Shown piece after piece: positions 13,814 to 38,333 of a DNA stretch of 44,250 nucleotides. The stretch comes from an uncultured Oscillospiraceae bacterium (GTDB lineage: Bacteria; Bacillota; Clostridia; Christensenellales; CAG-138): NCBI GenBank assembly GCA_964408655.1, contig CAYPAH010000001.1, positions 1 through 44,250 of the forward strand, given 5' to 3'. The translations under genes were made by a program, and so were the position numbers. Position 1 is the stretch's first letter, and the number at the start of each line of letters is the position of its first letter. The notes below the pieces were generated by a model, which was not told the DNA's origin, did no database searches, and worked only from the letters and a program-made list of their open reading frames with translations.

Positions 13814-13832
13814 GCCTTTTTCTCCTTTTCTT

Positions 13833-14030: not shown

Positions 14031-14035
14031 ACGCT

Positions 14036-14770: not shown

Positions 14771-14794
14771 ATTTTTTCTCCCTCCGGCGCGCGC

Positions 14795-15853: not shown

Positions 15854-15869
15854 AGCCTTTCAAGCTCCT

Positions 15870-16832: not shown

Positions 16833-16833
16833 A

Positions 16834-18513: not shown

Positions 18514-18531
18514 ATGAGCCTCCTCGTTTTT

Positions 18532-19172: not shown

Positions 19173-19240
19173 ATATATTCGCTCCTTTTTTCATTTTTCG
19201 GATATCGCGAAGGGGAAAGCTTCCCCTTCGCCTTTTTTTA

Positions 19241-20527
19241 TCAGTTGGCGATGGCCGTAGCGGAATATGAGCAGCCGCTTTCAACGCGCACCATATACTC
19301 TTCCACAAGCCGCTCGCTGCACTTGCTTGCCTTCCAGCCAACGGTGCTGCGCTGGTCAAGAGGATCGGCCGTGCCCGAGCTGCCCTGCTGCTTGATGATA
19401 GTGGTGAGCCCGCCGCCGCTGAGCTCGGTCTTGCCATAGGCGTTCGCGCCGAGCATAAGGCTTACGAAGACGGCGCTGCCGTCCGCGCCCGCGCCGCCGC
19501 CGCATATCACCGCGTCCGCGCTCACGCTCTTTACAGCCGCGCTTACCGTCAAACTTGCGCTGCCCGCGCTGCCTGCGGTGACGGAACTGAGCGTCGCCTG
19601 CTTGCCGCCCACATAAATAGCCGCGCCATCGCCGATCGCGGCGTTTGCGGCCTCCGCCTCCGCGGCGCTTATAGCCTCTTTGACGGCGATCGTGGTAGAG
19701 CCGCTTGAATCAAGCGCGGTCTTTAAGGTAAGGCGGCACTTGCCCGGCACTATGTCGGCGGGAGCGATGATCTTAGCCTCGGTGGTCTCAACGAAGCGAA
19801 CTCCGCCAAGCTTGCCGATCTCGCCGCGATAAATGTTATCGGGATGATATTTATGCAGCTCTATCCACTCTTCGCTGCGCATCAGGTCATATGCCACATA
19901 AGGATGCACGATGCAAACAAAGCTGTCGTCAACGGGCTTTGCGTTCATCGCCTTTAGCTGAGCCGCCGCGCGGAAGACCATATCGGGGCTGAGCTTGCAG
20001 TTTGCGCCTATCTCGCTGCGGTCGGTGACCTCGCTTTCGGTATTTCCGCTGACATAGGGAGCGTACATTACCTGAGTGCCGCCGCAGAGCACCTCGCGGG
20101 TGATGGTGTCGAGCGTTCGTCCTGCCTGACTTGCGAGTATCTTGGTGCTCTGCTCTACCACGGGATCGATGCTGGTAAGGTCGAGCATGTCGCTAAGCTC
20201 AACAAAATCGCCGTATTGATCGACAGAAGCCGTGACGCTTTCAACGTTGAGCTTGTTGCCCGCGGGGGTAACGCCCTCGGTAATGGGAGTAAGCGCCTTG
20301 CCAAGCGGAGAGAACTTGCGAAACTCTATGCTTTTTCCGCCATGCGGAGGAATGGGATAGCAGTCTCCGAACTGATCGTGAACAAGATCGGGCTCGGCAT
20401 AATCGATCAGCCTTTTTTCATAATAGGTCTTGGCCTCTGCCTCGGTGCTGTTGCCTTCCGCGCTCATTCCGGTGGTCTGGGTGGCTGCAAAAAGCTGAAG
20501 ATCTATCTTATCGTTGTTTTCCTTCAT
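19241..20527 (-). CDS. Major capsid protein (HK97 fold; resembles N4-gp56/TIGR04387-type)
   Basis: 428 aa. N-terminal pattern YYEKRLIDYAEPDLVHDQFGDCYPIPPHGGKSIEFRKFSPL...LTPITEGVTP recalls the N4-gp56 capsid family (from memory). Lies directly after the scaffold gene. Contains an Ala/Gly/Ser-rich insertion around aa 270-350. Confidence 0.8.
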   Translation of the reverse strand: MKENNDKIDLQLFAATQTTGMSAEGNSTEAEAKTYYEKRLIDYAEPDLVHDQFGDCYPIPPHGGKSIEFRKFSPLGKALTPITEGVTPAGNKLNVESVTASVDQYGDFVELSDMLDLTSIDPVVEQSTKILASQAGRTLDTITREVLCGGTQVMYAPYVSGNTESEVTDRSEIGANCKLSPDMVFRAAAQLKAMNAKPVDDSFVCIVHPYVAYDLMRSEEWIELHKYHPDNIYRGEIGKLGGVRFVETTEAKIIAPADIVPGKCRLTLKTALDSSGSTTIAVKEAISAAEAEAANAAIGDGAAIYVGGKQATLSSVTAGSAGSASLTVSAAVKSVSADAVICGGGAGADGSAVFVSLMLGANAYGKTELSGGGLTTIIKQQGSSGTADPLDQRSTVGWKASKCSERLVEEYMVRVESGCSYSATAIAN

Positions 20528-20549
20528 TGCATGTTTCCTTTCTTTACGC

Positions 20550-20999
20550 TTAAATATTGATGCTGTGTTTCTTGCCCTTTAGCGCCTCGCGCCCAATGCG
20601 CTCGCGCTCTTCGCGGCTCCATTCGCTGGGCGTTTTTTCGCGTATGGTGGCTGCCGCGCGTCCGCCAGTGCCGTTTTCGGCGGGACGCGAGCCTCGCGTT
20701 TCAATATCTCTTAGCACCCGCTCGCGCACTCCCTGCGCCACCTCGTTGATAAGCTTTCCCGTGAGCTCGTCCCTGTGGGCAAACTCATAGGCCGATCTCA
20801 TGTCTATGCCCGCGCGCATCAGCTTTGCGAAAAGAGGGTCTTTCATCTCGTTTTTCAGCTCGAATCCGGCGTAAACGCCCTTGAGACGCGCCTCCTCTTC
20901 TTTTATCGCCGCCGCCCGCAGCTCCAGCGCGCTGCCGCTGCCGTCAGGCGCTTTGCCCTCGCCCGTCTCTATGGCTTTTGCCGTTTTCTTTTCGTTCAT
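20550..20999 (-). CDS. Putative scaffolding protein
   Basis: 149 aa from ATG 20999 (AAGGAGAAGG RBS). Charged, helical, and immediately upstream of the capsid gene. No separate prohead protease gene is present. Confidence 0.6.
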   Translation of the reverse strand: MNEKKTAKAIETGEGKAPDGSGSALELRAAAIKEEEARLKGVYAGFELKNEMKDPLFAKLMRAGIDMRSAYEFAHRDELTGKLINEVAQGVRERVLRDIETRGSRPAENGTGGRAAATIREKTPSEWSREERERIGREALKGKKHSINI

Positions 21000-21042
21000 A
21001 CTGGCCTTCTCCTTTTTCCAAAATAGCTTTCGCATCTTTTCC

Positions 21043-21357
21043 TCAGCTTTCTACCGATATCGAATCGGGGTAACGCTCGGCCAAAAGGCTCATCCCGCTC
21101 GTCACGGTGTCCACCGCCGCCGAAAGATAATCCTCATAGCCGCCTGCCGCCTCCGCGTCGATAGAAAGATAGTCCTCGTCGCTGCAAATGCGGCAGCTTC
21201 TTAGACAGCCGTTTTGCAGCTTTTCATCCATCACCGAAAGCAGCATTTCGGACATGAGCTTTACATATTGCTCTTCCTCGGCGCCCGTTTCTCCCGCTTC
21301 GCTGGTCATGGTGATGATATATCTGTCATAACAGCGGTCAACTACATAATTCGTCAT
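21043..21357 (-). CDS. Acidic phage protein of unknown function
   Basis: 104-aa ORF whose start overlaps the portal stop by 4 nt. No family recognised. Confidence 0.5.
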   Translation of the reverse strand: MTNYVVDRCYDRYIITMTSEAGETGAEEEQYVKLMSEMLLSVMDEKLQNGCLRSCRICSDEDYLSIDAEAAGGYEDYLSAAVDTVTSGMSLLAERYPDSISVES

Positions 21358-23114
21358 TGCATTTTCACCTCCGCGCCCTCACGGGCTTTTTGTGTGGCTC
21401 CGCCCCGCATGGCGGAATAAATGGCTTCGTCGCGTCCCTTCGGGGCGCTCTTTTCGCTTCCTTCAAGGGCGGGCAGCAGCGTTTCGGCTTTTTTAAGCAG
21501 CTCCGCGTTTTCCTTAAGCGCTCTAAGCGCCTGCTCCTTGCCCTCAAACTCCATAAGCTCCATAGCCTGCACGGCCTGCTTTACGCGCGCGGGGTCGAAA
21601 AGGCCGAGCTTATAAAGATTCATCGCAAATTCGTTTTGCGAAATGCGGCTGTATGCGCCCGCCTTCGCCGCCTTCACACGCACATCGAACACCGGCTCGC
21701 GATAGGTAAGCAGTCCCGCCGTGTTTTCTTCATGCAGTCGGATATCCGCGTTCGTATAGCTGGTGAATTCCTCCGCGCCATTTTTGCCCGTTATGCGGAA
21801 ACAGCGCGGGCTGTCGTAAAACTGCCTTATCAGCTCGATTATCAAATAACAGACCCGCGCATAGGCACGGTAAGCCCCCTTTATCATGTCGCGGGAAAGC
21901 TTGCTGCCCGCCTCCTGCAGGGCGGCTATTGCCGAGGCCGCCGTGACCCCGCTCGCGGCTCCGCCCTGATTGAAGTCGCGGTTACCGCTGGTCTCTTTAA
22001 GCTCTTCTATCTTGTTGTTGAGTATTGAAATATATATGTCCGGAAGCGTTCTTACCTCGACCTGCGAAAGATTGTCGCGCGGGTTCCCGCTGCCGTGATA
22101 GTGAACGAAGTCGCGGCTCCAGTCGGCATACTCCTCTTCGTTTATGCTTCCGTCTCCCCTTACGAACCAGCGCGGCCTCGCGGCCATCAGCGCGTTTTTG
22201 AGTATCGCCTGATTCAAAAGGTCTATCTGCATCTGCGGACTTTTGCAAATATCCACATATCCATATCCCACGGGCGAGCCCTCCTCGGGAAACAGAGTGT
22301 CGAACACGAAGGGATATCTGGCGTGGTCATAAAAGCCCCTCTCGCGCATTTCGGGCAGATTTTCCGTGGCATAGAGCACCTCGCCGCAGGCAAGCTTAGC
22401 ATATTGCAGCACCGTGCGCGTTCCGCGTTTTTGCTTATAATACCAGTCGACCACGGGTATCTTGCCGCTTATGTCTATCGTGTCGTCATAAACATACTGC
22501 GTTACATCCACAGTTCTTCCGCCAAGCTGAAGCTCTGGAAAACGCGCGCGCAGATATTCCGCGTCCACAAGCTCCACAGAGAAAAAGTTGGCGGAGGACT
22601 GTATATCCCTTACTCCCGGCTCCCAAAAGAGATTGAGAAGATCAAGCTGGCGAATATCTATCTCGCCAAGGCCGTTGTTCTTTTCCGGATTCCAGAATAC
22701 TCCCGTGATGCCCGTGCCGTTTTTGAGCTTGTACCACCACATGTCACTGTAAGCCTGCTCATAATCGTTCTGCTCGAGCAAAACGGGCAATATGCTTCCA
22801 AGAGCTTCGGCGGCGGCGCTGTCGTTCTGCTCGCGCGGCAGCACCAGGGGCTCGGGATAATGATCCATTGCGTCGGCGTGCTTTCCGGCTATGCAGTTTT
22901 GCAGCCATGCCGAGGCCGGCTCCGCCTCCCTTTCGCCCTTGCCGCGTATCTGCTCCCAGTGTCTCAGACGCCACCAGCCCTCGTTGGCGACTATCCGCTT
23001 TTCAAGGCCGGCCTTGCCCGCCTTGTACTTTTTGAGTATTTCGAGCGCCTCCGCCGCCTGCTCCCGTCCTATCGGCCTTTTGCCCGCTTGTTCACTTTGC
23101 TCCATGCTCTTCAT
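21354..23114 (-). CDS. Portal protein
   Basis: 586 aa, 13 nt downstream of the terminase gene. Size and position are typical of portals. No search was done. Confidence 0.75.
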   Translation of the reverse strand: MKSMEQSEQAGKRPIGREQAAEALEILKKYKAGKAGLEKRIVANEGWWRLRHWEQIRGKGEREAEPASAWLQNCIAGKHADAMDHYPEPLVLPREQNDSAAAEALGSILPVLLEQNDYEQAYSDMWWYKLKNGTGITGVFWNPEKNNGLGEIDIRQLDLLNLFWEPGVRDIQSSANFFSVELVDAEYLRARFPELQLGGRTVDVTQYVYDDTIDISGKIPVVDWYYKQKRGTRTVLQYAKLACGEVLYATENLPEMRERGFYDHARYPFVFDTLFPEEGSPVGYGYVDICKSPQMQIDLLNQAILKNALMAARPRWFVRGDGSINEEEYADWSRDFVHYHGSGNPRDNLSQVEVRTLPDIYISILNNKIEELKETSGNRDFNQGGAASGVTAASAIAALQEAGSKLSRDMIKGAYRAYARVCYLIIELIRQFYDSPRCFRITGKNGAEEFTSYTNADIRLHEENTAGLLTYREPVFDVRVKAAKAGAYSRISQNEFAMNLYKLGLFDPARVKQAVQAMELMEFEGKEQALRALKENAELLKKAETLLPALEGSEKSAPKGRDEAIYSAMRGGATQKAREGAEVKMQ

Positions 23115-23127
23115 CCTTTCTGCGTAT

Positions 23128-24480
23128 TTATATATCCAGTGCCGCGCATATTCCCGCCTTCGCCGGCGCGCCGCAGCGCGGGGCGATAGGTCTTGCCATG
23201 CAAAGATAGCGCAGCTCGTCCGCTATGTGATCCTCGCCCGTCGTGTCAAGATCCTCCGGATCGGTCTTTGAAAATACCAGCGTGGGCAGCGTGCGTATAA
23301 AGCCCGCGCAGCTTGAAAAGCAATAAAGCATCGGAATGCCGTTTTCGTCGAAGGCGAGGCGATAATGCACCTGCATCCAGCCGGGTATGCGCGAGTTGTC
23401 GCCCCTGTCAAAATAAACTCCGCAGGCGGCGGCCTCATCCGCTATCGATATCCCGCGGCTCGCGTCCCATATCGAAGGATCGGCCACGCCGATCACGCGC
23501 TTTCCTTTCAGATAGGGATGCTCTTTTTCCAGGCGGGCGATCTCCCTGAATATCTTATCCGGCGGCCATTTCAGCCCCGTGTTCGGGCTTTCCGTGCAGC
23601 CGTAAAGCTCAAGTATCCTATAGATCCGGCCGTCGTAATCCACCGCCCACCACGCGCATGAAAAGGGACGGGCATAGCCAAAGTCGAAGCTTCTGTATAT
23701 CTGCCACGCAGAGGGCGGCTCAAAGGGAGCTATCACATGCGTCCACTGCCTGTCGCGGTAATGCTCGGGAGCGTCGGTGAATTCAGCAAAAAACTGTCCC
23801 TCAAAAACGTCCCAGTCGCCATAGCGGTGCGCCCGCCTCAGCTTTTCGGGCAGGGCGTCCAAAACCGCCACATAGCCCGGGTCATATTTTAAAAGGAATT
23901 CGTTATCGTCCACCGTGGCCGGAATAAAGGCATAGTCCTGAGCGGCCTCGCCGGGCGTGAACCTTCTTTTTACAAATAAACGGCGGAACCATTCATGCTT
24001 CACTCCGCCGGGGTTGCCCGTAAAATACATACGGGCTGAAAAATCGGGGCGGACGCTTCTGTTGCAGGTCATAAGAAACTGCACCTGCGTCCATGTGAAA
24101 TGCGTGCATTCCTCAATGCCGATAACGTCGTATTCCTGCCCCTGATATTGAAAAACGTCCGTTTCGCTCTCGCAATAGCCAAGGCGTATGCGGCTTTGGT
24201 TGGCAAAGCGAAAGGCTTTTTCCGTGCTGTTATAAACAGCCGCGCCGCCAAGTATTTTTTGCAGCGGCAAAAGATGGTTTTCTCTAAGCTCCGGCAGCGT
24301 GCGGCGCAGCAGCAGAAGGTTGAGTCTAGGATAGCGCAAAGCCAGGAGGACGAGCTTCGTTCGCATAGCCCAGCTCTTTCCGCCGCCGCGCGCCCCGCCG
24401 TAGCCGATATAGCGGGCGCGGCTTTCAAAAAACCGCGCCTGCTTTGGATTGGGTGATCCAAGGGAAATAACACTTACCAT
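23128..24480 (-). CDS. Terminase large subunit
   Basis: 450 aa. Walker A (GYGGARGGGKS), Walker B (YDVIGIEE) and C-terminal RNaseH-like nuclease acidic residues (SFDFGY; GEDHIADELRY). Confidence 0.92.
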   Translation of the reverse strand: MVSVISLGSPNPKQARFFESRARYIGYGGARGGGKSWAMRTKLVLLALRYPRLNLLLLRRTLPELRENHLLPLQKILGGAAVYNSTEKAFRFANQSRIRLGYCESETDVFQYQGQEYDVIGIEECTHFTWTQVQFLMTCNRSVRPDFSARMYFTGNPGGVKHEWFRRLFVKRRFTPGEAAQDYAFIPATVDDNEFLLKYDPGYVAVLDALPEKLRRAHRYGDWDVFEGQFFAEFTDAPEHYRDRQWTHVIAPFEPPSAWQIYRSFDFGYARPFSCAWWAVDYDGRIYRILELYGCTESPNTGLKWPPDKIFREIARLEKEHPYLKGKRVIGVADPSIWDASRGISIADEAAACGVYFDRGDNSRIPGWMQVHYRLAFDENGIPMLYCFSSCAGFIRTLPTLVFSKTDPEDLDTTGEDHIADELRYLCMARPIAPRCGAPAKAGICAALDI

Positions 24481-24540
24481 AAAGAAGAACCTCGCTAGAA
24501 CTTACGTTCTTTGCGTATATTACCATAGAACAAAAGTTTT

Positions 24541-24563
24541 GTGGTACAGAAAATGGTACTCTG
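24541..24563. repeat. Copy A of a 23-nt motif (GTGGTACAGAAAATGGTACTCTG) upstream of the terminase gene
   Basis: 18/23 identical to copy B, including an identical 14-nt core AAAATGGTACTCTG. Contains GGTAC twice, 11 nt apart. Confidence 0.7.
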
Positions 24564-24581
24564 TGAAATATATTATTTGTT

Positions 24582-24854
24582 CTATTCGCTCCAGTCCTTC
24601 CCCCTCTCGTCGGAAAATATCACCATCAGCTCATTAGCGCTCTCGCACTCTCTAAGCTCCTTTATCTGCTGCAATACCGACACCACCTCTTTAAGCGGCT
24701 TCGGGTCGGGTTTTCCCCCATTCTCCTTGCCTTTTTCCTCTATCAGCTCGCTCTCGATATACTCGAAAAGCCTTGCTCCGGGCTTTAACGAGCGCGATAA
24801 AAGCTGTTCCATCTCGGAAAAAGCGTCCTCATTTTTCGGTTTTTTCGTCTCCAT
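24582..24854 (-). CDS. Small acidic protein in the small-terminase position (function unknown)
   Basis: 90 aa from ATG 24854, which is preceded by AAGGAGAGGGAG. The ORF track start at 24881 lacks an RBS. No HTH or TerS motif recognised. Confidence 0.6.
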   Translation of the reverse strand: METKKPKNEDAFSEMEQLLSRSLKPGARLFEYIESELIEEKGKENGGKPDPKPLKEVVSVLQQIKELRECESANELMVIFSDERGKDWSE

Positions 24855-24917
24855 ATCTCCCTCTCCTTTCGCGTGAACCATTGTTCTGTTAACAGCATAT
24901 ACTCTTTTGTTTTTTTC

Positions 24918-24992: not shown

Positions 24993-25021
24993 TTGCGAAG
25001 GGCAAAACGAGGTGCTATACT
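24993..25021 (+). promoter_or_regulatory. Sigma-A-type promoter for the AAA+/VWA operon
   Basis: TTGCGA (24993-24998), 17-nt spacer ending in TGc, then TATACT (25016-25021). It lies about 35 nt upstream of the GGGAGG RBS and TTG start. Confidence 0.5.
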
Positions 25022-25056
25022 AATCGATAAATAAAAACCGCGGGAGGAAAACGAAC

Positions 25057-25968
25057 TTGCTGCAATTTCTAAGAAGCGAAGGCGTCAGCGAAAACATAAT
25101 AAACGAGATAGAGCGCTTCAGGCAGGAGCATCCTCCCGAAGAAGCTCTGACCTACCGCATACCTAAGCCGAAGTATCATTATTACGGCAAAGAGATCTGG
25201 GAGGCCGCCGTTACGGCCATACTCTGCGGCGAGCATCTTTTGCTGCTCGGCCCCAAGGCGACGGGCAAAAACGTGCTGGCCGAAAATCTCGCCGCCGCCT
25301 TCAACAGACCCGCATGGGACATTTCATTTTATATAAATACCGACGCGGCTTCGCTTATCGGAACTGACAGCTTTGAAAACGGCAAAGTCACTCTGCGCCA
25401 CGGCCCCGTTTACCGCTGCGCGGAGCACGGCGGTTTTGGCGTGCTTGACGAGATAAACATGGCTAAGAACGAATCTCTGGCCGTGCTGCATTCCACTCTC
25501 GATTTTCGCCGCGTTATCGACGTTCCGGGTTACGATAGAATAGTGCTGAACAGCGCCACCCGCTTTATCGCGACCATGAATTACGGCTATGCCGGCACAA
25601 GGGAGCTCAACGAGGCGCTTGCTTCGCGCTTTGTGGTCATCAATATGCCCTCTATCAGCCCGGAAAATCTGCAAAAGCTGCTGCGGCGGGAGTTTCCTTC
25701 ACTAAAAGAAGGCTATATCACGCAATTCAGCGAGCTTTTCACGGATATACGCGAAAAATGCGAAAGCGCGGAAATATCCACAAAAGCGCTGGACCTGCGC
25801 GGGCTTCTCGCCTCCCTGCGCCTTATGGAAAAGGGGCTTGCGCCGATAGAGGCTTTGCGTCTTGGCATCGTGAACAAATCCTTCGACCAGTTTGAAATGC
25901 AGCTCGTTGAGGATGTGATAAGGGCGCGCATACCGGAAAATCTATATCACGATAAACTTTTTGATTAA
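25057..25968 (+). CDS. MoxR/NorQ/CbbQ-class AAA+ ATPase (AAA_5-like) with atypical P-loop
   Basis: 303 aa, TTG start with GGGAGG 9 nt upstream. Walker A is GPKATGKN (Asn where Ser/Thr is expected). Also Walker B FGVLDEINMA, sensor-1 IATMN, and an Arg-finger region ALASRF. Confidence 0.8.
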   Translation: MLQFLRSEGVSENIINEIERFRQEHPPEEALTYRIPKPKYHYYGKEIWEAAVTAILCGEHLLLLGPKATGKNVLAENLAAAFNRPAWDISFYINTDAASLIGTDSFENGKVTLRHGPVYRCAEHGGFGVLDEINMAKNESLAVLHSTLDFRRVIDVPGYDRIVLNSATRFIATMNYGYAGTRELNEALASRFVVINMPSISPENLQKLLRREFPSLKEGYITQFSELFTDIREKCESAEISTKALDLRGLLASLRLMEKGLAPIEALRLGIVNKSFDQFEMQLVEDVIRARIPENLYHDKLFD

Positions 25969-25969
25969 A

Positions 25970-27703
25970 ATGGAAATAGACAGGAGCGAAAAGCTGCGCG
26001 CGCTCAATATGATATGGAACGCGGCCAAAGATTATTCCATCCTTCCCTCCTTCAAGGTGTATGACGCGCGGGGGCGGGCGGATATCTATTGGAACAGCAT
26101 AATAGGCGCCGTTTACAGGCATTTCGATTTTTCAAGGATAGAAGCTCTGTTTCGCTCGTTCGAGGGCGACGCTTCGGAATATCAGCTAAAAAATCTTCTT
26201 TGGCTGGGTCTGGAAAGCGCTGCCTATTTTCGCGAGCGCGGCGAACGCCCCGTGCTTGACGAGCTTCGTCTTGAATACGCCAGGGCCGTGCTGGCAGAAA
26301 GGCCGAAGCCCGACCCCTTGCTTTTCGAGCGGGTGCAAAGGGCGAGCTGCGCTCTCATCGCCGGAGAAAGACCCGACTGCTCCGAATATTGCCTGAAGCT
26401 TTGCGAGCTGCTTTCTTTTAGCGCCGATATGGACACGGAGATGGTGATAGCGCGCGCAAAAGAGATATTTTCGCTTTATCTTCATTTTGAAGCGGAGGAA
26501 AAGGCAAAAAAAGAAGAAGCCGCGCCCGAAAGCGGGCGAAGCTTACATATCCCGTTTTTGCGCCTTGGAAAAAAGGGCGCTAAAAGGGGCGGCGAGGGGC
26601 GCGCTTCATCCCGTCTTTTCGCTTCCGGCAGCGCGGAGTATTCAAGCGAGAGCGGTTCCGACCCCGAATCTATCAATGTTCGGCTTTCCGCCTTCAATAT
26701 GCGAAGCGAGGATGAGCTGCGCGCCTATATGGAAAATTTTTTCGGCGCTTCCGTTTATAACAGCTCGCAGCTGTCGAGCATGGAAAAAGAGCTTTGCAGC
26801 GGCAGGCACAGCGGCTGCCATCTGCATTTTACCCGAGGCGTTTTCAAGGATAAAAAGGGCTTTAAGGGAAAAGACGATTATCTCAAAATGTCGGCTCTTC
26901 GCCAGCGCGATAAAAACCGCGCATATTACGAAGAGAGACGCACCGAGGCGGAGCATCATATTTCGAGCCTTGCAAGCCGCATTCGAAACTCCATGCTCAC
27001 CCACCTTCAAAGCAGCGCCGTGAAGTCTAACTCCGGCATACTGTGCGCGGGCAGAGTGTGGCGCGAAGAATATCTAAACGATATGAAGATATTTCAAAAG
27101 GAGCTAAAGGGAGAATGCGGAGAGCTGAGCGTAGATATACTGCTCGACGCTTCAAGCTCGCAGGCAAAGCGGCAGGAGCGCCTTGCCACGCAGGCTTATA
27201 TCATAGCCGAAAGCCTGAGCCGCTGCGCCATCCCCGTGCGTCTCTATTCCTTTTGCAGCCTGCGCGGCTTCACTGTCTTTCGCATTTTTCGCGATTATAA
27301 CGAGACTGATAAAAACGCCGAGGTCTTCAATTATTTCACCTCCGGCTGCAATCGCGACGGGCTTGCGCTTAGAGTTTCGCACGATATGCTCTTAAAAAGC
27401 CCGTATGAGCATAAGCTGCTCATAATCCTTTCGGATGTGCGGCCTAACGGCGTTCAGCGCGTAAGAACGGAAAACGGCGAATACAAAAACTACAGCGACG
27501 AGCTTGCCGTGCGCGACACCGCCGCCGAGCTTAGAAGCGCCGAGCGCGATGGCATTTCCGTGCTTTGCGTTTTTACCGGCGAAGAGGACGCGCTCCCCTC
27601 GGCCAAGCTTATTTACGGCACGGGCTTCACCCGCATAAAAGAGCTTGAGCATTTTGCGGACGCGGTAGGCACGCTTATTCAAGAGGAAATAAAAAATTTA
27701 TAG
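25970..27703 (+). CDS. NorD/CobT-like protein: long uncharacterised N-terminal region + C-terminal VWA (MIDAS) domain
   Basis: 577 aa from ATG 25970, 1 nt after the AAA+ stop. A TTG at 25961 is an alternative start. The C-terminal ~190 aa carry a MIDAS DxSxS (ILLDASSSQ) and a later SD motif (LIILSDVRPNG). There is a central low-complexity acidic/Ser region and a Cys/His cluster (CSGRHSGCHLH). Confidence 0.8.
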   Translation: MEIDRSEKLRALNMIWNAAKDYSILPSFKVYDARGRADIYWNSIIGAVYRHFDFSRIEALFRSFEGDASEYQLKNLLWLGLESAAYFRERGERPVLDELRLEYARAVLAERPKPDPLLFERVQRASCALIAGERPDCSEYCLKLCELLSFSADMDTEMVIARAKEIFSLYLHFEAEEKAKKEEAAPESGRSLHIPFLRLGKKGAKRGGEGRASSRLFASGSAEYSSESGSDPESINVRLSAFNMRSEDELRAYMENFFGASVYNSSQLSSMEKELCSGRHSGCHLHFTRGVFKDKKGFKGKDDYLKMSALRQRDKNRAYYEERRTEAEHHISSLASRIRNSMLTHLQSSAVKSNSGILCAGRVWREEYLNDMKIFQKELKGECGELSVDILLDASSSQAKRQERLATQAYIIAESLSRCAIPVRLYSFCSLRGFTVFRIFRDYNETDKNAEVFNYFTSGCNRDGLALRVSHDMLLKSPYEHKLLIILSDVRPNGVQRVRTENGEYKNYSDELAVRDTAAELRSAERDGISVLCVFTGEEDALPSAKLIYGTGFTRIKELEHFADAVGTLIQEEIKNL

Positions 27704-27821: not shown

Positions 27822-28352
27822 CTATTCAAAAAAGCCGAGCTTTCCAAAGGGAGCGACGCGCAAAAACGCGCGCCCGCGAAGGGCTCCGGCCTCAAGGCGC
27901 ATGTTTTCGGGCGACACCGTCATATATGTGCGGCAGTCCGGCAGAAGGAAATATTCATCCTCTTCAAGCTTTATCTCCTCCATATTCGCCTCTGCGTACT
28001 GCGCGTAAGCCGCCTCGCTCAAAAACACGCCGTTTATATAAACGTTGCCTTCGTCTATCACTATGCTCTCGCCCGGCAGCCCCACTATGCGCCCAAGCAG
28101 GGACGCGCCCTCAAAATCGGCCGAATAGATATCTCCCCGCCGGGGAGTGCGAATAAATTTGCTAAAGCGCGAAAAGAGCACCACGTCTCCCGCCCTTAAA
28201 GTGGGCGACATCCCCTCATCCGCTATCTGCGTGCCTTGAAATACCAGCGCGAAAATGAGCAGCGCTATCAAAAGCGCGACAAAAAGCGTGAACAGCGCGC
28301 TTCTTCTGTGCAGTCTTCCGTATTCCCAGCCGTTTTCTTCTCTGCGTTCCAT
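27822..28352 (-). CDS. Signal peptidase I paralog lacking both catalytic residues (probable pseudo-enzyme)
   Basis: 176 aa from ATG 28352 (TGATG overlap with lepB). S26 fold is recognisable (MSPTL, RGDIY, GRIVGLPGE, VYINGVFL). In alignment with the adjacent active paralog, catalytic Ser aligns to Gly (GDSMLPTL vs DEGMSPTL) and catalytic Lys aligns to Gly (KRVIALPGE vs GRIVGLPGE). Box E GDNRxxSxDSR is absent. Confidence 0.75.
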   Translation of the reverse strand: MERREENGWEYGRLHRRSALFTLFVALLIALLIFALVFQGTQIADEGMSPTLRAGDVVLFSRFSKFIRTPRRGDIYSADFEGASLLGRIVGLPGESIVIDEGNVYINGVFLSEAAYAQYAEANMEEIKLEEDEYFLLPDCRTYMTVSPENMRLEAGALRGRAFLRVAPFGKLGFFE

Positions 28353-28948
28353 CAGATCGCCCTGTAATTTTTGATCGGCCACATAACGAAGTGCGCCCGT
28401 CCCACTATGCGCGAATACGGTATCGGCCCTACGCTTTCAGCGCGGCTGTCCTTGCTCACATTGCGGTTGTCGCCCATGACGAACACGCTGTTTTCCGGCA
28501 CGGTCATCTCTTCCATGTCGCCAAAGATCATATCGTTCCAATATTCGCTCTCGTCAAGCGGCTCTCCGTTTATATATACCGTTCCCCAGCTTATTTTGAT
28601 CCTTTCTCCGGGAAGGGCTATCACCCGCTTAACGCAGTTTTTGCTTTCATCGGGATAGCGGCAGATGATTATCTCGCCGCGTTCGGGATCGCTAAAGTAA
28701 AAACTCACCTTTTCCACAAACATCCGCTCGTTGTTGAAAAGCGTTGGCAGCATAGAGTCCCCGTCAACGCGAACAGGCTCAAACACAAAAAGCCTTATCG
28801 AAAGCGCCACTATCAGCACCACCGCCAGATACAAAAAAAAGTCGATATTGTCGTATTTCCTATAGGCGGGATCGTTCGCGTGGAACTCCTCCTGCGCCTT
28901 CAGCAGTGCGTTCTTTTCCTTTGCTGTGAGCTTCTTTGCTTCACTCAT
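28352..28948 (-). CDS. lepB: Signal peptidase I
   Basis: 198 aa. TM anchor, then GDSMLPTL (Ser), VKRVIALPGE (Lys) and GDNRNVSKDSR. All canonical S26 boxes are present. Confidence 0.9.
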   Translation of the reverse strand: MSEAKKLTAKEKNALLKAQEEFHANDPAYRKYDNIDFFLYLAVVLIVALSIRLFVFEPVRVDGDSMLPTLFNNERMFVEKVSFYFSDPERGEIIICRYPDESKNCVKRVIALPGERIKISWGTVYINGEPLDESEYWNDMIFGDMEEMTVPENSVFVMGDNRNVSKDSRAESVGPIPYSRIVGRAHFVMWPIKNYRAI

Positions 28949-29145
28949 TCCCCGTTACCTTCTTGCATAATCAATTTTTTTGCGCTCTTTATAAAATCCG
29001 CCCGGTCAAGCATCACTATACGTCCGCATTGCAGGCATTTTATCTTTACGTCCGCGCCGGTGCGTATTATCGTCCACTCGTTGCTCCCGCAGGCGTGAGG
29101 CTTGCGCATCACCACGCGGTCGCCAAGCTCAAAGCTTTCTATCAT
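28945..29145 (-). CDS. DUF951-family small protein
   Basis: 66 aa from ATG 29145 (AGAGGAGAAG RBS). FELGDRVVMRKPHACGSNEWTIIRTGADVKIKCLQCGR matches my memory of DUF951. Confidence 0.7.
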   Translation of the reverse strand: MIESFELGDRVVMRKPHACGSNEWTIIRTGADVKIKCLQCGRIVMLDRADFIKSAKKLIMQEGNGE

Positions 29146-29161
29146 CTTCGGCTTCTCCTCT

Positions 29162-30949
29162 TTATATGGCTCTTGTGGCTTCTTTGAGCCATTCAAGCAT
29201 TTCGCTCTCGCCCTCAAAGCAGGGCGTCAACGCGGAAAGCACCTGCGCGTGATATGCGTTCAAAGCGCTTTTTTCCTCGGCGTTGAGCATTGAGTCCTCC
29301 ACAGCGTCAAGGTCTATGGGCGAAAGCGTCAGCGGCTCAAAGCAAAGGAACTCGCCGTAAGGCGTGGTTTCGGCCTTGCGGCAGAGCAAAAGGTTTTCGA
29401 GCCTTATTCCGTGGCTTTCCTCTTCATAAATACCCGGCTCGTCGCTGACCACCATCCCGGGCGCAAATATAAAGCCCTCGTGCTTATGGCGGATGCGAAC
29501 GGGATCTTCATGCACTCCGAGAAGATAGCCTACGCCGTGTCCCGTGCCATGCCTGTAATCAAGACCCTCTCTCCAGATGGGCGCGCGGGCGAGCATGTCG
29601 AGCTGCTCTCCCTCGGTGTCCGCGGGAAAGCGCGCGTTCATAAGCGCGAGCATGGCCTTGAGCACCAGAGTATAATGCCGCTTTTCCTTTTCCGTCACGG
29701 CGCCAAGCGCATATGTGCGCGTCAGGTCTGTAGTTCCTTCATAATATTGTCCGCCCGAGTCAACGAGCAAAAGCCCTCTCGCCTCTATGGGGACGTTGCT
29801 TTGCGCGTCGGCCTTGTAATGAACTATCGCCGCGTGCTCGCCGTAGCCGCATATCGTTTCGAAGGAAAGCCCTATGCAGCCCTCGGTTTTAAGTCTCATT
29901 TCATCCAGATACTCCGCCGCCGAAAGCTCGCTTACGCCCTCTCTGCCGGCGTTTTTCTTTATCCAGCGCATAAACTTCGCAAGCACCGCGCCATCCTTGC
30001 GGTGCGCTTCGCGCATGTGCCTTATCTGGGTCTCGTTTTTTATTATGCGCCCGCGCGTGAGCTGATCGCCCGCTTCAACGACTATCGCGTTCTGATTCAG
30101 CGCGCTCCAAAGAGAATAATTGGTCTTCGCCGCGCTTAGCATCGCCATCGTGCCCTTTTCATATCTTGCCGCGCAGCCGAGCGCCGCCTCATAAGGGCGA
30201 AACTCCACGCCCAGCGCTTCAAGCGCCGCGTCAAATTCATCGCTTCTCTTTTTCGCGTCTATGCAAAGCGTAACGCGCTCTTTTTCAACAAAGCAAAAGC
30301 AAAGCGGAACGGGGGTATGCGGCATGTCTCCGCCGCGAATGTTCAGCAGCCACGCAATATCCTCGCAATCAGATAGTACCCAAAGCTCGGCGCCCTGCTC
30401 TTCCATAGCGGCGCGTATGGCTTTAAGCTTATGCTCCGCGCTCTCTCCGGCGTATTTTTCATCGAGCAGCCATGCCTTGGCCTCCGGCATGGGCGGCCTG
30501 TCCGTCCATATGGGCGAGATAAGATCCTCGCCGCTTCTTATCTCTATCTCTTTATCGGCGAAAAGCGCGGAATAGCTTTTTACGGTTCGCGCATCCATCG
30601 TGGCGCCGTCAAAGCCCAGCGCGGCGTTTTCTTCAAGCGTGTCATGCAAAAAGTCGCCTATTTCCGGCACGTCCTTTTCGCCGAGCCTCATAAGCTCTAT
30701 GCCGCTTCCCTCAAGCTGCTTAGCGGCCTGCAAAAAGTAGCGTCCGTCCGTCCAGAGATACGCCTTTTCGGGCAGCACTACGAGCGTGCCCGCCGAGCCT
30801 GTGAAGCCAGAAAAATATTCCCGCGCGCGAAAATGCGCACACACATATTCCGAGCCGTGATAATCGTCCGTCGGAATAATATAAGCGCCAAGCCCCGCCT
30901 GCTTCATGCCTTTTCTAAGCGCTTTGAGCCTTTGTGTGATAACGTTCAT
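29162..30949 (-). CDS. Xaa-Pro aminopeptidase (M24B, aminopeptidase P family)
   Basis: 595 aa. Creatinase-like N-terminal domains plus an M24 pita-bread core with metal ligands (VDSGGQY; HGTGHGVG; SDEPGIY; IRLEN). Confidence 0.85.
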   Translation of the reverse strand: MNVITQRLKALRKGMKQAGLGAYIIPTDDYHGSEYVCAHFRAREYFSGFTGSAGTLVVLPEKAYLWTDGRYFLQAAKQLEGSGIELMRLGEKDVPEIGDFLHDTLEENAALGFDGATMDARTVKSYSALFADKEIEIRSGEDLISPIWTDRPPMPEAKAWLLDEKYAGESAEHKLKAIRAAMEEQGAELWVLSDCEDIAWLLNIRGGDMPHTPVPLCFCFVEKERVTLCIDAKKRSDEFDAALEALGVEFRPYEAALGCAARYEKGTMAMLSAAKTNYSLWSALNQNAIVVEAGDQLTRGRIIKNETQIRHMREAHRKDGAVLAKFMRWIKKNAGREGVSELSAAEYLDEMRLKTEGCIGLSFETICGYGEHAAIVHYKADAQSNVPIEARGLLLVDSGGQYYEGTTDLTRTYALGAVTEKEKRHYTLVLKAMLALMNARFPADTEGEQLDMLARAPIWREGLDYRHGTGHGVGYLLGVHEDPVRIRHKHEGFIFAPGMVVSDEPGIYEEESHGIRLENLLLCRKAETTPYGEFLCFEPLTLSPIDLDAVEDSMLNAEEKSALNAYHAQVLSALTPCFEGESEMLEWLKEATRAI

Positions 30950-30960
30950 TTTACCCTTCC

Positions 30961-31446
30961 TTATGGATCGATAATGTCAATGGGCAGCCCGCGCCGTTTA
31001 GCCCTTTCCACGGTGTAAGCCGTGCCGCCCGGTTTGCCGTCGTATACGGCTATCATGCGCTCGCTGTTTTCTATGATATAATCATTTCTCGCAAAATAAC
31101 AGCCCCGCGTGTGCGTTTTTGACAGCGTTTTAACGCTGTCGCAGCGGGCGATGAGACTTTCAAAGCTCATTTTATCAGAATCGCACCACGAAACATGCGG
31201 GCTTTCAAAGGGCAGAGCCGCTTCAAGGCGCAGCCCTTCATGCTCTGCTTTAAGCTCCGTCACCGCCTGTGCGAAAATAAGGTCGCTGCCCTCCGCAAAG
31301 CCGCAGATAAAATCCTCGCAGCCCTTTTCAAAAGCGCACAGCACCGCCTTTTTGAGCTTTGCCTTCAGCAGTTCTATCGCGGGAGCGTCCTTTCGCGAAA
31401 AAGGCAGCTTTTCAAAGCGGTATCCCGTAAAGCCGCAGGCGCTCAT
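30961..31446 (-). CDS. DUF1273/SLOG-family protein (YpsA-like)
   Basis: 161 aa. CGFTGYR start and a GxxGG-like tail (GKPGGTAYTV), recalled as DUF1273 features. Confidence 0.65.
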   Translation of the reverse strand: MSACGFTGYRFEKLPFSRKDAPAIELLKAKLKKAVLCAFEKGCEDFICGFAEGSDLIFAQAVTELKAEHEGLRLEAALPFESPHVSWCDSDKMSFESLIARCDSVKTLSKTHTRGCYFARNDYIIENSERMIAVYDGKPGGTAYTVERAKRRGLPIDIIDP

Positions 31447-31697
31447 CCTTCCAAAACTTTACGCAGGCAGCGCGCAAGCTGATCGCTGCACGAGGTGGGC
31501 TTCACCCCGCAGCGGATGCCAAGAAGCTTATCCGATATCTGCTTCGCGTCCTCGCCCTCGCAAAGCTTCCCCAGCGCCTTGAGATTTCCGTCGCAGCCGC
31601 CGGTATAAACGAGATTGTGTATCTTTTTTTCCTCATCCAGATCGAAGTCTATGCGGCTTGAACAGACCGCCTTGGTATAAAAGGTATGATGCGTCAT
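31443..31697 (-). CDS. TSCPD-domain small protein (TIGR03905-like)
   Basis: 84 aa. Pattern C-SRIDF...YTGGCDGNLKAL...GIRCG...TSCSDQLA matches the 4-Cys TIGR03905 family, from memory. Confidence 0.65.
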   Translation of the reverse strand: MTHHTFYTKAVCSSRIDFDLDEEKKIHNLVYTGGCDGNLKALGKLCEGEDAKQISDKLLGIRCGVKPTSCSDQLARCLRKVLEG

Positions 31698-32482
31698 ATT
31701 TCCGTTTCTCCTTCAAATACGAATTCGGCCGGACCCGTCATATAGGCGGACGCGCCCTCTTTTTCTATCGTTAAGGCGCCAAGCGTCAAATGCACCTTCA
31801 GTTTTTCTTCTGTGAGCCCCGCCCGCATCGCGCAAAGCGCGGAGCTTGTCGCGCCCGTGCCGCAGCAAAGCGTTTCGCCGCAGCCGCGCTCCCAAACGCG
31901 CATGGTGATGTTTTCCCTGTCGTCCACTCTGATAAAATCAACGTTCGTTCCATTGGGAAAAGCCTTCGCCCATTCGAGCAGCGCGCCTATCTTCATCCAT
32001 TTGCGGCTTTCAGGATCGTTCACGGGAACGACGGCGTGGGGAACGCCCATGATTAGCGGCCAGTATTCTATGTCGCTGCCCTCTATATTTACGCGGCGCA
32101 GACCATCGCTCAAAAATTCCGGCTCGCCCATGCATATGCGTATGTTCGCATTTTCAAGACATTCCGCCTCTTTCACGCCCGCAAGCGTTTCAATAGTCAT
32201 TTTGTCCTTTGAAACTATGCCTCGCTCGCGCACATAACGCGCAAAACAGCGTATTCCGTTGCCGCACATTTCGGCCTCGCTGCCGTCGCTGTTTATTATC
32301 CGCATACGGATATCGGCCTTTTCAGAGCTTTTTATAAGTATAAGCCCGTCCGCGCCTATGCCCGTGCGCCTGTTGCAAAGCACTTTGCCCAATAAGGCAA
32401 GCTCACTGAGCCTTTCTTTTCTTTCGTCAAGCACGATAAAATCGTTGCCCAGACCATGCATTTTTGTAAAACAGATCTTCAT
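31694..32482 (-). CDS. dapF: Diaminopimelate epimerase
   Basis: 262 aa from ATG 32482. MHGLGNDF at the N-terminus and two catalytic Cys motifs (MCGNGIRC; CCGTGATS). Confidence 0.9.
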   Translation of the reverse strand: MKICFTKMHGLGNDFIVLDERKERLSELALLGKVLCNRRTGIGADGLILIKSSEKADIRMRIINSDGSEAEMCGNGIRCFARYVRERGIVSKDKMTIETLAGVKEAECLENANIRICMGEPEFLSDGLRRVNIEGSDIEYWPLIMGVPHAVVPVNDPESRKWMKIGALLEWAKAFPNGTNVDFIRVDDRENITMRVWERGCGETLCCGTGATSSALCAMRAGLTEEKLKVHLTLGALTIEKEGASAYMTGPAEFVFEGETEI

Positions 32483-32637
32483 GCGCCGATTATACCACAT
32501 CTTGCTAACGCGCTTCCACTCCCGCGTGTGAACTTTTCTGTGACTTACTGTACAAAAGTCGAGCTTTGCGCTATCATTATTGTGTTAATTTATGTATTCA
32601 TATACATATTTACTGAAAGGAAAAGAAAAGTATTAGT

Positions 32638-34668: not shown

Positions 34669-34674
34669 ACGATT

Positions 34675-35391: not shown

Positions 35392-35397
35392 GCAAAT

Positions 35398-36258: not shown

Positions 36259-36260
36259 TT

Positions 36261-37628: not shown

Positions 37629-37644
37629 CGAGAGGAGGAACCAT

Positions 37645-38316: not shown

Positions 38317-38333
38317 AAGGGGGAGAAGGAAGC

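What the first reader, a model, noticed from the sequence alone, without database searches (positions are those of the whole stretch)
25057..27703. Orphan MoxR/NorQ-like AAA+ ATPase + NorD/CobT-like VWA protein next to the phage-like cluster
This is a translationally coupled two-gene operon. It encodes a 303-aa AAA_5-type ATPase and a 577-aa protein whose last ~190 aa form a VWA domain with an intact MIDAS DxSxS. Established MoxR-VWA pairs (NorQ/NorD, CbbQ/CbbO, CobS/CobT, RavA/ViaA) act on a specific client encoded nearby. No nitric oxide reductase, Rubisco, CobN or gas-vesicle gene is present here. The nearest neighbours are the divergently transcribed particle operon and signal peptidases. 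vWA-MoxR modules have also been proposed on computational grounds as NTP-dependent conflict systems. The ~390-aa N-terminal region of the VWA protein, including an acidic/Ser-rich linker and a CSGRHSGCHLH Cys/His cluster, is not recognisable to me. Candidate roles are an anti-phage or abortive system, or an assembly/remodelling chaperone for the adjacent particle. Both are hypotheses.
Basis: partly seen in the sequence, partly recalled or inferred. Interest (0 to 1): 0.75.

Follow-up and report, generated by a model that had tools for sequence, protein, structure and literature searches.

The report
Orphan MoxR-type ATPase and VWA partner
This is a real two-gene host operon for an ATP-driven protein-remodelling machine (a ring ATPase and its adaptor) found across gut Clostridia; it lies beside a decayed prophage by accident of position, and the protein it acts on is still unknown.

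Summary
Genes 25057-25968 (303 aa, AAA_5 ATPase) and 25970-27703 (577 aa, C-terminal VWA with an intact MIDAS) form a tightly juxtaposed pair.

The two proposed roles do not hold.
- The pair is a conserved cellular module. Relatives occur in at least 271 species-level genomes, almost all Oscillospiraceae, and the ATPase gene sits directly upstream wherever the contig allows.
- Phage genes flank it only in the window and two close relatives.
- 80 viral contigs related to the neighbouring terminase lack the pair, and IMG/VR holds no relative of the VWA protein.
- No PADLOC model matches, and no effector or defence island is present.

The VWA protein has the NorD/CobT plan: N-domain, disordered linker, helical hairpin, pore "finger", then a VWA with a CobT-type D-S-S-N-D MIDAS. 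It fails the CobT, CobS, NorD and GvpN family thresholds. Its N-domain matches no solved fold.

Two new points emerged.
- The ATPase has a family-wide non-canonical Walker A, GPKATGKN.
- Outside Oscillospiraceae, orthologous pairs sit in a rearranging but persistent cluster with a CstA-family transporter and two uncharacterised proteins.

Verdict: a new, uncharacterised member of the MoxR-VWA remodeller class. Moderate interest.

The parts
24993..25021 (+). Promoter-like site (TTGCGA, 17 nt, TG-extended TATACT) in the 175-bp divergent intergenic region
   Evidence: Consensus scan. Only 3 sites were found against 2.5 expected, so this is weak evidence.
25042..25047 (+). Shine-Dalgarno GGGAGG, 9 nt upstream of the TTG start of gene A
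   Evidence: Sequence read.
25057..25968 (+). Gene A: 303-aa single-module MoxR-class AAA+ ATPase (Pfam AAA_5)
   Evidence: (76.3 bits). PDB sequence hits: NorQ 2.8e-12, CbbQ 3.5e-12, a single midasin AAA domain 9.7e-11, CobS only 0.06. It is 51-78% identical in all relatives.
25249..25272 (+). Walker A GPKATGKN (aa 65-72), with Asn in place of the canonical Ser/Thr
   Evidence: The Asn aligns to the T of midasin's GKT.
25435..25452 (+). Walker B FGVLDE (aa 127-132). Sensor-1 N175 and Arg R191 follow at nt 25570-25632.
   Evidence: These positions are invariant or at least 90% conserved in 70 homologues.
25970..27703 (+). Gene B: 577-aa VWA adaptor with the NorD/CobT-type domain plan
25970..26494 (+). 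B N-terminal domain (aa 1-175): one helix, a short strand region, then seven helices. R10, N13, W16, Y40, R93 and R100 are conserved family-wide.
   Evidence: AF2 models, pLDDT 85 for the isolated domain. Conservation. No PDB fold match (best E 1.1) and no Pfam match.
26495..26704 (+). B disordered linker (aa 176-245), Ser-rich and of mixed charge. It is 55-92 aa long across the family.
   Evidence: pLDDT below 50. Composition.
26795..26827 (+). Cys/His cluster CSGRHSGCHLH (aa 276-286) at the entry to the CobT_C-like region
   Evidence: Partial conservation.
26870..27004 (+). Two long tandem helices (aa 301-345), matching the alpha0'-alpha0 pair described for CobT_C
   Evidence: AF2 secondary structure. 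The profile alignment to CobT 340-459 covers this region. CobT description from bioRxiv 10.64898/2026.07.21.739949.
27005..27124 (+). Candidate pore finger/shaft (aa 346-385): a beta-hairpin with a short tip helix carrying the conserved W364-R365
   Evidence: E349-353, H360-369, E375-379; W 42/48, R/K 48/48. The Foldseek alignment to NorD VWA+finger chains spans about 265 columns. The role is inferred by analogy.
27125..27700 (+). VWA domain (aa 386-577). MIDAS residues are D393/S395/S397 (nt 27146-27160), N461 (within nt 27347-27361) and D489 (within nt 27428-27439).
   Evidence: The pattern matches the CobT MIDAS D422/S424/S426/N518/D546.

Best explanation
The two genes encode a host MoxR-class AAA+ ATPase (A) and its dedicated VWA adaptor (B). 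They belong to a large, uncharacterised family of Clostridia. They are not part of the neighbouring phage-derived cluster and are not a defence system.

Inferred mechanism, by analogy with the solved NorQ-NorD and CobS-CobT complexes:
- A forms a hexameric ring.
- B plugs the ring with a finger that precedes its VWA domain (aa ~346-385, with a conserved W-R at the tip).
- B's N-terminal domain docks on the ATPase lid and/or on the client.
- The MIDAS face binds an acidic residue of the client.
- ATP hydrolysis pulls or twists B's long disordered linker, remodelling the client, most likely to allow insertion of a cofactor or a conformational or assembly step.

The client is not encoded next to the pair in this genome. 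The only recurrent genomic partners of the family are seen outside Oscillospiraceae: a CstA-family transporter, a two-TM protein X, and a ~100-aa protein S. My best guess for the client class is therefore a membrane transporter module.

Shown: gene structure, domain plan, conservation, distribution, lack of phage or defence linkage, and the cstA linkage in distant orthologues. Inferred: ring-and-finger mechanics. Speculative: client identity.
For: Domain identity.
- AAA_5 scores 76 bits. NorQ and CbbQ are the best single-domain PDB matches.
- A family profile of B hits CobT (4.7e-7, including the helices and shaft before the VWA) and NorD (5.8e-6).
- Foldseek gives NorD VWA+finger at E 2e-10, TM 0.71-0.75, then midasin/Rea1 MIDAS.
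- The AF2 model has the tripartite plan with a disordered 70-aa linker. This is the same plan as described for CobT and NorD.

Cellular, vertically conserved module.
- More than 880 close homologues of uniform ~570 aa.
- 3106 clusters at 50% identity with E<=1e-3, of which 462 have E<=1e-30.
- 271 species-level genomes.
- The ATPase partner is present in 78 of 86 loci.
- Flanks vary and are housekeeping genes.

Not phage.
- Terminase and portal are adjacent only in L005/L006 and L007.
- None of 80 viral terminase relatives carries the pair.
- IMG/VR has no relative of B.
- The 'Bacteriophage sp.' records that carry the pair also carry AcrB and rpsT.

Not defence.

The cstA-X-AAA-VWA(-S) cluster appears in 7 distinct contexts, with the pair inverted once and S on either side.
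Against: - No client was identified for the window's own copy. cstA, X and S are absent from the 44-kb window and from the 10-kb flanks of 80 Oscillospiraceae loci, so the transporter link may not apply in this lineage.
- The Walker A Asn (GKN) could mean altered or weak ATPase activity.
- No complex prediction was possible, so ring, finger and lid contacts rest on analogy and on a single-chain AF2 model with pTM 0.55.
- Adjacency to the phage-derived cluster is conserved in three species, so co-regulation through the shared 175-bp divergent promoter region is not excluded.
Confidence: 0.65

Rival explanations
1. The pair is a phage-derived cobST-like cargo module belonging to, or co-opted by, the adjacent prophage remnant. 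It would assist assembly or remodelling of that particle, or boost a host chelatase during infection.
For: - It is adjacent and divergently transcribed from the 99-aa ORF/terminase/portal cluster in the window, L005/L006 and L007.
- The best BFVD fold matches are phage 'CobT-like' VWA proteins (E 2e-17 to 1e-9).
- The ATPase hits phrog_249 at 1.8e-29.
- cobST two-gene clusters are reported as widespread in tailed viruses (PMC8651126).
Against: - 80 or more other loci have the pair with no phage gene within 10 kb.
- None of 80 IMG/VR relatives of the terminase has the pair.
- IMG/VR has no relative of B.
- tblastn against 50,697 phage records finds only unverified faecal contigs that carry AcrB and ribosomal protein S20.
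- The BFVD TM-scores (~0.35) are what the VWA part alone would give.
- L005 has lost the capsid genes yet keeps the pair intact.
Confidence: 0.07
2. The pair is an NTP-dependent anti-phage or abortive-infection (conflict) system of the vWA-MoxR type.
For: vWA-MoxR modules have been proposed as conflict systems (my background knowledge of the Kaur et al. 2020 eLife paper on NTP-dependent conflict systems; not re-read here). There are weak sub-threshold hits to bpMoxR (16.9 bits) and PADLOC mad8 (E 0.0058). It lies next to a prophage remnant.
Against: - No PADLOC model passes for either protein.
- There is no third component, effector domain or beta-propeller.
- Conservation is uniform and core-gene-like, with single-architecture proteins in hundreds of species, unlike patchy defence genes.
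- Flanks are purine biosynthesis, PFK, aldolase, signal peptidases and the like.
- In distant relatives the partners are a transporter and membrane proteins.
Confidence: 0.04
3. The pair is the motor/adaptor (CobS/CobT-like) of a class I chelatase or de-chelatase, whose large CobN/ChlH/HmuS-like subunit is encoded elsewhere in the genome.
For: - The best sequence-profile hit of B is CobT.
- The MIDAS has the CobT-type Asn.
- The alpha0'-alpha0-shaft-VWA topology matches the CobT_C description.
- NCBI labels a homologue 'cobaltochelatase CobT-related'.
Against: - TIGR01651 CobT scores 17.5 bits against a cut-off of 759.
- A versus CobS gives E 0.06 in the PDB and 12 bits against TIGR01650 for a homologue.
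- The N-domain shows no M48C-like match.
- No CobN-size gene or cob/cbi gene lies next to the pair in any of about 100 loci.
- The recurrent partners are cstA, X and S instead.
Confidence: 0.1

Closest known systems
NorQ/NorD (FeB insertion into cytochrome c nitric oxide reductase)
   Same: A single-module AAA_5 ATPase of ~270-300 aa pairs with a ~600-aa adaptor that has an N-domain, a long disordered linker and a VWA with a pore-inserting finger. The best structural match of B is NorD VWA+finger. A hits NorQ at 2.8e-12.
   Different: No norCB is present. Similarity to NorD is limited to the VWA. The N-domain is unrelated or unrecognisable. The Walker A is GKN. The organisms are gut anaerobes.
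CobS/CobT of aerobic cobaltochelatase
   Same: Adaptor length, domain order, the two helices plus shaft before the VWA, and the D-S-S-N-D MIDAS.
   Different: The ATPase is not CobS-like (E 0.06). The CobT equivalog score is far below its cut-off. No M48C-like N-domain was detected. No CobN lies nearby.
CbbQ/CbbO Rubisco activase
   Same: A matches CbbQ structures (3.5e-12 and 2.5e-8). Both are MoxR-VWA pairs.
   Different: No Rubisco is present. CbbO is about 770 aa (from memory); no CbbO hit appeared in the Pfam, NCBIfam or PDB searches run.
Midasin/Rea1 (eukaryotic ribosome-assembly AAA+ with a C-terminal MIDAS domain)
   Same: A matches individual midasin AAA modules as well as it matches NorQ (best domain 44.9 bits). 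The VWA of B matches the Rea1/MDN1 MIDAS domains (E 1e-7 to 1e-6).
   Different: Midasin is a single ~4,700-4,900-aa chain (chain lengths). Here there are two small proteins. The summed E-value of 1e-34 is inflated by repeated domains.
Phage-encoded cobST-like two-gene clusters
   Same: Overall two-gene architecture. The best BFVD fold hits are phage CobT-like proteins. A hits phrog_249.
   Different: No detectable sequence relatives of B exist in bona fide phage genomes or IMG/VR. This family is chromosomal and conserved.
vWA-MoxR conflict systems (computationally proposed)
   Same: The combination of a MoxR ATPase and a vWA protein.
   Different: No third protein, effector or beta-propeller. 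The bpMoxR model is below threshold. There is no PADLOC hit and no defence-island context.

Membership tests
MoxR-class AAA+ ATPases (Pfam AAA_5; CbbQ/NorQ/GvpN-like) | AAA_5 domain above the Pfam gathering score | tested here: met
   76.3 bits against 22, full-length profile match 1-139/139.
MoxR-class AAA+ ATPases (Pfam AAA_5; CbbQ/NorQ/GvpN-like) | Canonical Walker A GxxxxGK[S/T] | tested here: not met
   The motif is GPKATGKN. The Asn is conserved in 70 close and 9 distant homologues. CobS has G71-S78.
MoxR-class AAA+ ATPases (Pfam AAA_5; CbbQ/NorQ/GvpN-like) | Walker B hhhhDE, sensor-1 Asn, arginine finger | tested here: met
   FGVLDE 127-132, N175 and R191 are conserved.
MoxR-class AAA+ ATPases (Pfam AAA_5; CbbQ/NorQ/GvpN-like) | Helix-2 insert and pre-sensor-1 hairpin lining the pore | not tested
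MoxR-class AAA+ ATPases (Pfam AAA_5; CbbQ/NorQ/GvpN-like) | Adjacent gene for a VWA/MIDAS partner | tested here: met
   Adjacent in the window, and in 78 of 86 related loci; several of the remaining loci (e.g. L040, L064) place the gene at a contig end.
NorQ/NorD | Linked to norCB (cNOR), the client | tested here: not met
   No such gene in the window or in any annotated related locus.
NorQ/NorD | VWA with a finger that fits the ATPase pore | tested here: inconclusive
   Foldseek TM is 0.71-0.75 over ~265 columns to the NorD VWA+finger chains, and the AF2 hairpin with a tip helix spans aa 346-385. No complex model was made.
NorQ/NorD | NorD-type N-terminal domain | tested here: not met
   The profile match to NorD covers only 379-533. 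The N-domain fold search found nothing.
CobS/CobT cobaltochelatase | CobT equivalog model TIGR01651 above its cut-off | tested here: not met
   17.5 bits against 759.
CobS/CobT cobaltochelatase | CobS-type ATPase | tested here: not met
   E 0.062 to the CobS chains. TIGR01650 scores 12 bits against 558 for a homologue.
CobS/CobT cobaltochelatase | M48C-peptidase-like CobT N-domain | tested here: inconclusive
   No Pfam hit and no PDB fold hit (best E 1.1). No CobT chain appeared among the listed fold hits, and the fold library stops at April 2026, before the July 2026 CobSTN preprint. The order of secondary-structure elements (one helix, short strands, about seven helices) is compatible.
CobS/CobT cobaltochelatase | MIDAS of the D-x-S-x-S ... 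N ... D type | tested here: met
   D393, S395, S397, N461 and D489 against CobT D422, S424, S426, N518 and D546.
CobS/CobT cobaltochelatase | CobN present in the same genome | not testable with these tools
   None in the window or in the flanks. Whole genomes could not be searched.
vWA-MoxR conflict / known anti-phage systems | Match to a PADLOC defence model | tested here: not met
   B has no hits. A hits mad8 at E 0.0058, 14 bits.
vWA-MoxR conflict / known anti-phage systems | bpMoxR-type ATPase plus a third component or effector | tested here: not met
   PF20030 scores 16.9 bits against 27. No conserved third gene is present in Oscillospiraceae apart from a lineage-specific ~220-aa protein.
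Phage cobST-like clusters | Encoded in a viral genome | tested here: not met
Clostridial cstA-linked AAA_5/VWA family (uncharacterised, defined here) | Full-length homology of both proteins, including the GKN Walker A | tested here: met
   AAA 51-59% and VWA 27-33% identity over 580-640 aligned residues for seven of eight comparators (331 residues for L176). GPKATGKN or a near-variant (G[SQ]KATGKN) is present in all, with the GKN ending invariant.
Clostridial cstA-linked AAA_5/VWA family (uncharacterised, defined here) | Adjacent cstA, X (~340 aa, 2 TM) and S (~100 aa) | tested here: not met
   Absent from the window and from 80 Oscillospiraceae loci.

The most novel reading that the evidence does not exclude
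This family may be a MoxR-VWA remodeller dedicated to a CstA-type transporter module (cstA, the two-TM protein X and the ~100-aa protein S). That would be a client class not described for MoxR-VWA chaperones. It would use an ATPase with an Asn-substituted P-loop. The window's copy would then act in trans on an unlinked module, or would have switched client in Oscillospiraceae.
Probability: 0.2. Interest if true: 0.6.

Novelty: new member of a known kind. Interest (0 to 1): 0.35.

Why it matters
MoxR-VWA pairs are among the least understood AAA+ machines, and each characterised pair has been tied to one client. This family is present in hundreds of gut Clostridia species, including Oscillibacter, Dysosmobacter and Limivicinus, with cstA-linked relatives in other Clostridia (one from Anaerovoracaceae). 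It has no assigned client.

Showing that it is not linked to the neighbouring phage remnant removes a misleading lead. The conserved cstA-X-AAA-VWA-S neighbourhood and the invariant GKN P-loop give two concrete, testable handles on what the machine does. If the transporter link is real, it would extend MoxR-VWA function from metalloenzyme maturation to the assembly or regulation of a nutrient transporter.

Tried and rejected
- N-domain identity. Pfam and NCBIfam scans of aa 1-177 and 245-380 found nothing. A separate AF2 model of the N-domain (pLDDT 85) searched against the PDB also found nothing (best E 1.1).
- Riboswitch or other RNA leader upstream of the pair, in the window and in six diverse loci. 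None was found.
- Defence models: none.
- Phage origin: rejected. IMG/VR has no relatives. The terminase's viral relatives lack the pair. The 'Bacteriophage sp.' GenBank hits are bacterial DNA.
- Conserved four-ligand Cys/His metal site: rejected on conservation.
- The midasin E-value of 1e-34 as a sign of special affinity: rejected. It is a sum over repeated AAA modules, and the best single module scores 44.9 bits.
- B. subtilis YojN/YojO as possible orthologues (from memory). No way was found to fetch the sequences, and a literature search was uninformative.
- A metagenome scan with the X alignment, meant to quantify linkage.
- [FeFe]-hydrogenase/GltD-like genes next to the pair in Oscillibacter and Dysosmobacter. 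The arrangement is clade-limited and explicable by synteny plus an inversion, so it was not adopted.
Full report
**Observation.** The two ORFs are real and placed as described.
- Gene A runs 25057-25968 (+) and encodes 303 aa. It starts at a TTG preceded by GGGAGG at the right spacing, with a promoter-like TG-extended -10 site at 24993-25021.
- Gene B is listed from TTG 25961. The ATG at 25970 gives the 577-aa product, which is identical to a database protein, and homologue N-termini align there.
- A's TAA stop ends at 25968. One base separates stop and start, and no Shine-Dalgarno precedes B. Juxtaposition is shown; translational coupling is an inference.
- A is a full-length Pfam AAA_5 domain (76 bits).
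- B ends in a VWA domain whose MIDAS residues D393, S395, S397 and D489 are invariant, and N461 is kept in 47 of 48, across relatives down to 27% identity.
The linker is Ser-rich but of mixed charge, and in most relatives has more K/R than D/E. Only C276 and H280 of the Cys/His cluster are well conserved.

**Anatomy of B.** An AlphaFold2 model built on 30 homologues (mean pLDDT 79.5) gives the following layout:
- a mostly helical N-domain, aa 1-175;
- a disordered segment, aa 176-244;
- a small region carrying the Cys/His cluster;
- two long tandem helices, aa 301-345;
- a beta-hairpin with a short tip helix, aa 346-385, carrying a conserved W-R;
- a VWA fold, aa 386-577.

This is the plan reported for CobT: N-domain, ~90-aa disordered linker, beta0-alpha0'-alpha0, a shaft that enters the CobS pore, then a VWA with MIDAS D-S-S-N-D (bioRxiv 10.64898/2026.07.21.739949). 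It is also the plan reported for NorD: N-domain on the NorQ lid, an unresolved linker that is functionally required, and a VWA finger in the pore (PMC13036017 and PMC9976466).

A family profile hits CobT at 4.7e-7, covering the helices, shaft and first VWA strands, and NorD at 5.8e-6. Foldseek puts the NorD VWA+finger chains first (E 2e-10, TM 0.71-0.75), followed by midasin/Rea1 MIDAS domains.

The N-domain alone, modelled at pLDDT 85, has no match in the PDB (best E 1.1) or in Pfam. The NorQD authors note that N-domains of MoxR-associated VWA proteins are not conserved between systems and probably confer client specificity. An unrecognisable N-domain is therefore what a new family would show.

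**Anatomy of A.**
- The best single-domain PDB matches are NorQ (2.8e-12), CbbQ (3.5e-12) and individual midasin AAA modules (9.7e-11).
- The summed midasin E-value of 1e-34 reflects repeated modules.
- CobS is barely detectable, at E 0.06.
- Walker B, sensor 1 and the arginine are conserved.
- The Walker A is GPKATGKN, with Asn where P-loops carry Ser or Thr. This holds in 70 Oscillospiraceae homologues and in all nine distant homologues examined. I have no explanation for it.

**Distribution and context.** B has more than 880 detectable close homologues of uniform ~570 aa. A profile search finds 3106 clusters at 50% identity, 462 of them below 1e-30. A scan of one genome per species found relatives in 271 genomes. 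The 80 best are almost all Oscillospiraceae, including Oscillibacter valericigenes Sjm18-20, O. ruminantium, Dysosmobacter and Limivicinus.

Across 86 loci the ATPase gene sits directly upstream in 78; several of the remaining loci (e.g. L040, L064) place the gene at a contig end. Clustering all neighbouring ORFs shows that it is the only universally linked gene. Flanks are ordinary metabolism and housekeeping genes and differ between clades.

**Relation to the phage-like cluster.** Upstream on the minus strand lie a 99-aa ORF, large terminase, portal, major head protein, an internal-virion-like protein, and LysM and NlpC/P60 proteins. A host LytR gene follows. No integrase or replication genes are present.

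The same terminase-99-aa-pair arrangement occurs only in the window's nearest relatives:
- L005/L006, where the capsid module has been deleted;
- L007, which is cut by a contig end.

No other locus has a phage gene. The terminase has 598 relatives in IMG/VR. The 80 fetched share the terminase-portal-head gene order, and none has the ATPase or VWA gene within 10 kb. IMG/VR has no relative of B. The few 'Bacteriophage sp.' GenBank records carrying the pair also carry AcrB or ribosomal protein S20, so they are bacterial DNA from virome preparations. The adjacency is therefore best read as an old prophage remnant lying next to a host operon.

**Defence.** No PADLOC model matches. The bpMoxR model is below threshold. 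There is no third component or effector, and the neighbourhoods are not defence islands.

**A functional lead from distant orthologues.** Outside Oscillospiraceae, pairs with 51-59% (ATPase) and 27-33% (VWA) identity and the same GKN motif lie in a cluster containing:
- a CstA-family transporter (PF02554);
- an uncharacterised ~340-aa protein with two central TM helices (X);
- the ATPase and the VWA protein;
- a ~100-aa protein (S).

The one taxonomically labelled locus is from Anaerovoracaceae; named homologues of X come from Lachnospiraceae, Oribacterium and Eubacterium.

I reached this cluster from the VWA side (L087, L088, L171) and independently from the X side (L174, L176/177, L178/179). 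In L175 the pair is inverted but still adjacent. S lies downstream, upstream or on the opposite strand. The outer flanks differ each time. One cstA-X locus lacks the pair (L173), and one pair has no visible cstA (L172, near a contig end).

X and S match no Pfam or NCBIfam family. No paper in the library links CstA with MoxR. None of the three genes is in the window or within 10 kb of the pair in 80 Oscillospiraceae loci. Whether they exist elsewhere in those genomes could not be tested.

**Conclusion.** The pair is a genuine, host-encoded MoxR-class ATPase/VWA adaptor module of a large uncharacterised Clostridia family. It most likely works like NorQD and CobST: ring, pore finger, lid-docked N-domain, MIDAS-bound client and linker-transmitted force. 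It fails the membership tests for NorQD, CobST, GvpN, RavA-type or conflict-system families. Its client is unknown. A CstA-type membrane module is the only candidate supported by comparative genomics, and only for distant orthologues. It is a new member of a known kind, of moderate interest, and the phage-related and defence readings should be dropped.

Noticed in passing
window 13100-24881 (minus strand): The phage-like cluster holds only about 11 kb of head, packaging and lysis genes, with no integrase or replication genes: NlpC/P60, LysM, an internal-virion-like protein, major head, portal and TerL. TerL has 598 IMG/VR relatives, many on ~40-43-kb contigs with the same gene order. The cluster is syntenic in L005/L006 and L007 at host-like divergence (TerL 80-87%, portal 76%). 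L005 has lost the capsid, scaffold-like and internal-protein genes. It looks like an old, vertically inherited prophage remnant.
   Followed up: partly
window 24582-24881 (-): A 99-aa acidic ORF lies between the terminase and the ATPase gene. It is conserved (53-62%) only in L005-L007 and absent from 80 viral terminase relatives. It has no Pfam, PHROG or PADLOC hit.
   Followed up: partly
window 25249-25272: The Walker A motif is GPKATGKN, with Asn replacing the Mg-coordinating Ser/Thr. It is conserved throughout the family, close and distant.
   Followed up: partly
L087:5000-12300, L088:5600-11914, L171:4219-9908, L174:5423-11029, L175:5421-10767, L176:5371-11033, L178:5445-11384: A conserved neighbourhood S / cstA / X / AAA_5 / VWA occurs in Clostridia outside Oscillospiraceae (one locus from Anaerovoracaceae; named X homologues from Lachnospiraceae, Oribacterium and Eubacterium). 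Gene order and orientation vary. X (~340 aa, 2 TM, NCBI label 'ATPase P') and S (~100 aa) are uncharacterised.
   Followed up: partly
e.g. L003:8330-8971 (-), and 42 other Oscillospiraceae loci: A fast-evolving ~215-250-aa protein (median 42% pairwise identity) lies divergently upstream of the pair in the Limivicinus-type clade, with varying outer flanks. It has no Pfam hit, and some copies carry a CGCGP motif. It is absent from the window.
   Followed up: partly
L001:11772-15349; L066, L069, L071, L077 upstream of the pair: An [FeFe]-hydrogenase and a GltD-like NAD(P)H oxidoreductase lie next to the pair in Oscillibacter and Dysosmobacter, either upstream-divergent or downstream-convergent. 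VWA identity between the two arrangements is only 48%. This may be synteny plus an inversion.
   Followed up: partly
GenBank MT836279.1 (L089), MT837820.1 (L090): These 'UNVERIFIED: Bacteriophage sp.' records from a faecal virome carry the pair together with AcrB, ribosomal protein S20, a serine recombinase and a YhcG nuclease. They are bacterial chromosomal fragments, not phage genomes.
   Followed up: partly
window 42782-42884 (-): A TPP riboswitch (63.6 bits) lies upstream of a ThiT/YuaJ-type thiamine transporter gene (42166-42771). This is ordinary.
   Followed up: no
window 27822-28948 (-): Two tandem, overlapping S26 signal peptidase genes. The distal one (186 aa) matches only profile positions 4-142 of 168, with a much weaker score, so it may be a degenerate paralogue.
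   Followed up: no
window 27822-39215 versus L005:11749-11919: In L005 the pair is followed directly by the EPSP-synthase-family, G5/M23 and thiamine-transporter genes. In the window these lie 11.5 kb further on (39363-42771). A block of about 12 host genes is therefore inserted, deleted or moved between the two relatives.
   Followed up: partly
tool: The metagenome-contig scan with alignment A4 failed with 'unexpected contig name' and still consumed the session's only scan.
   Followed up: no
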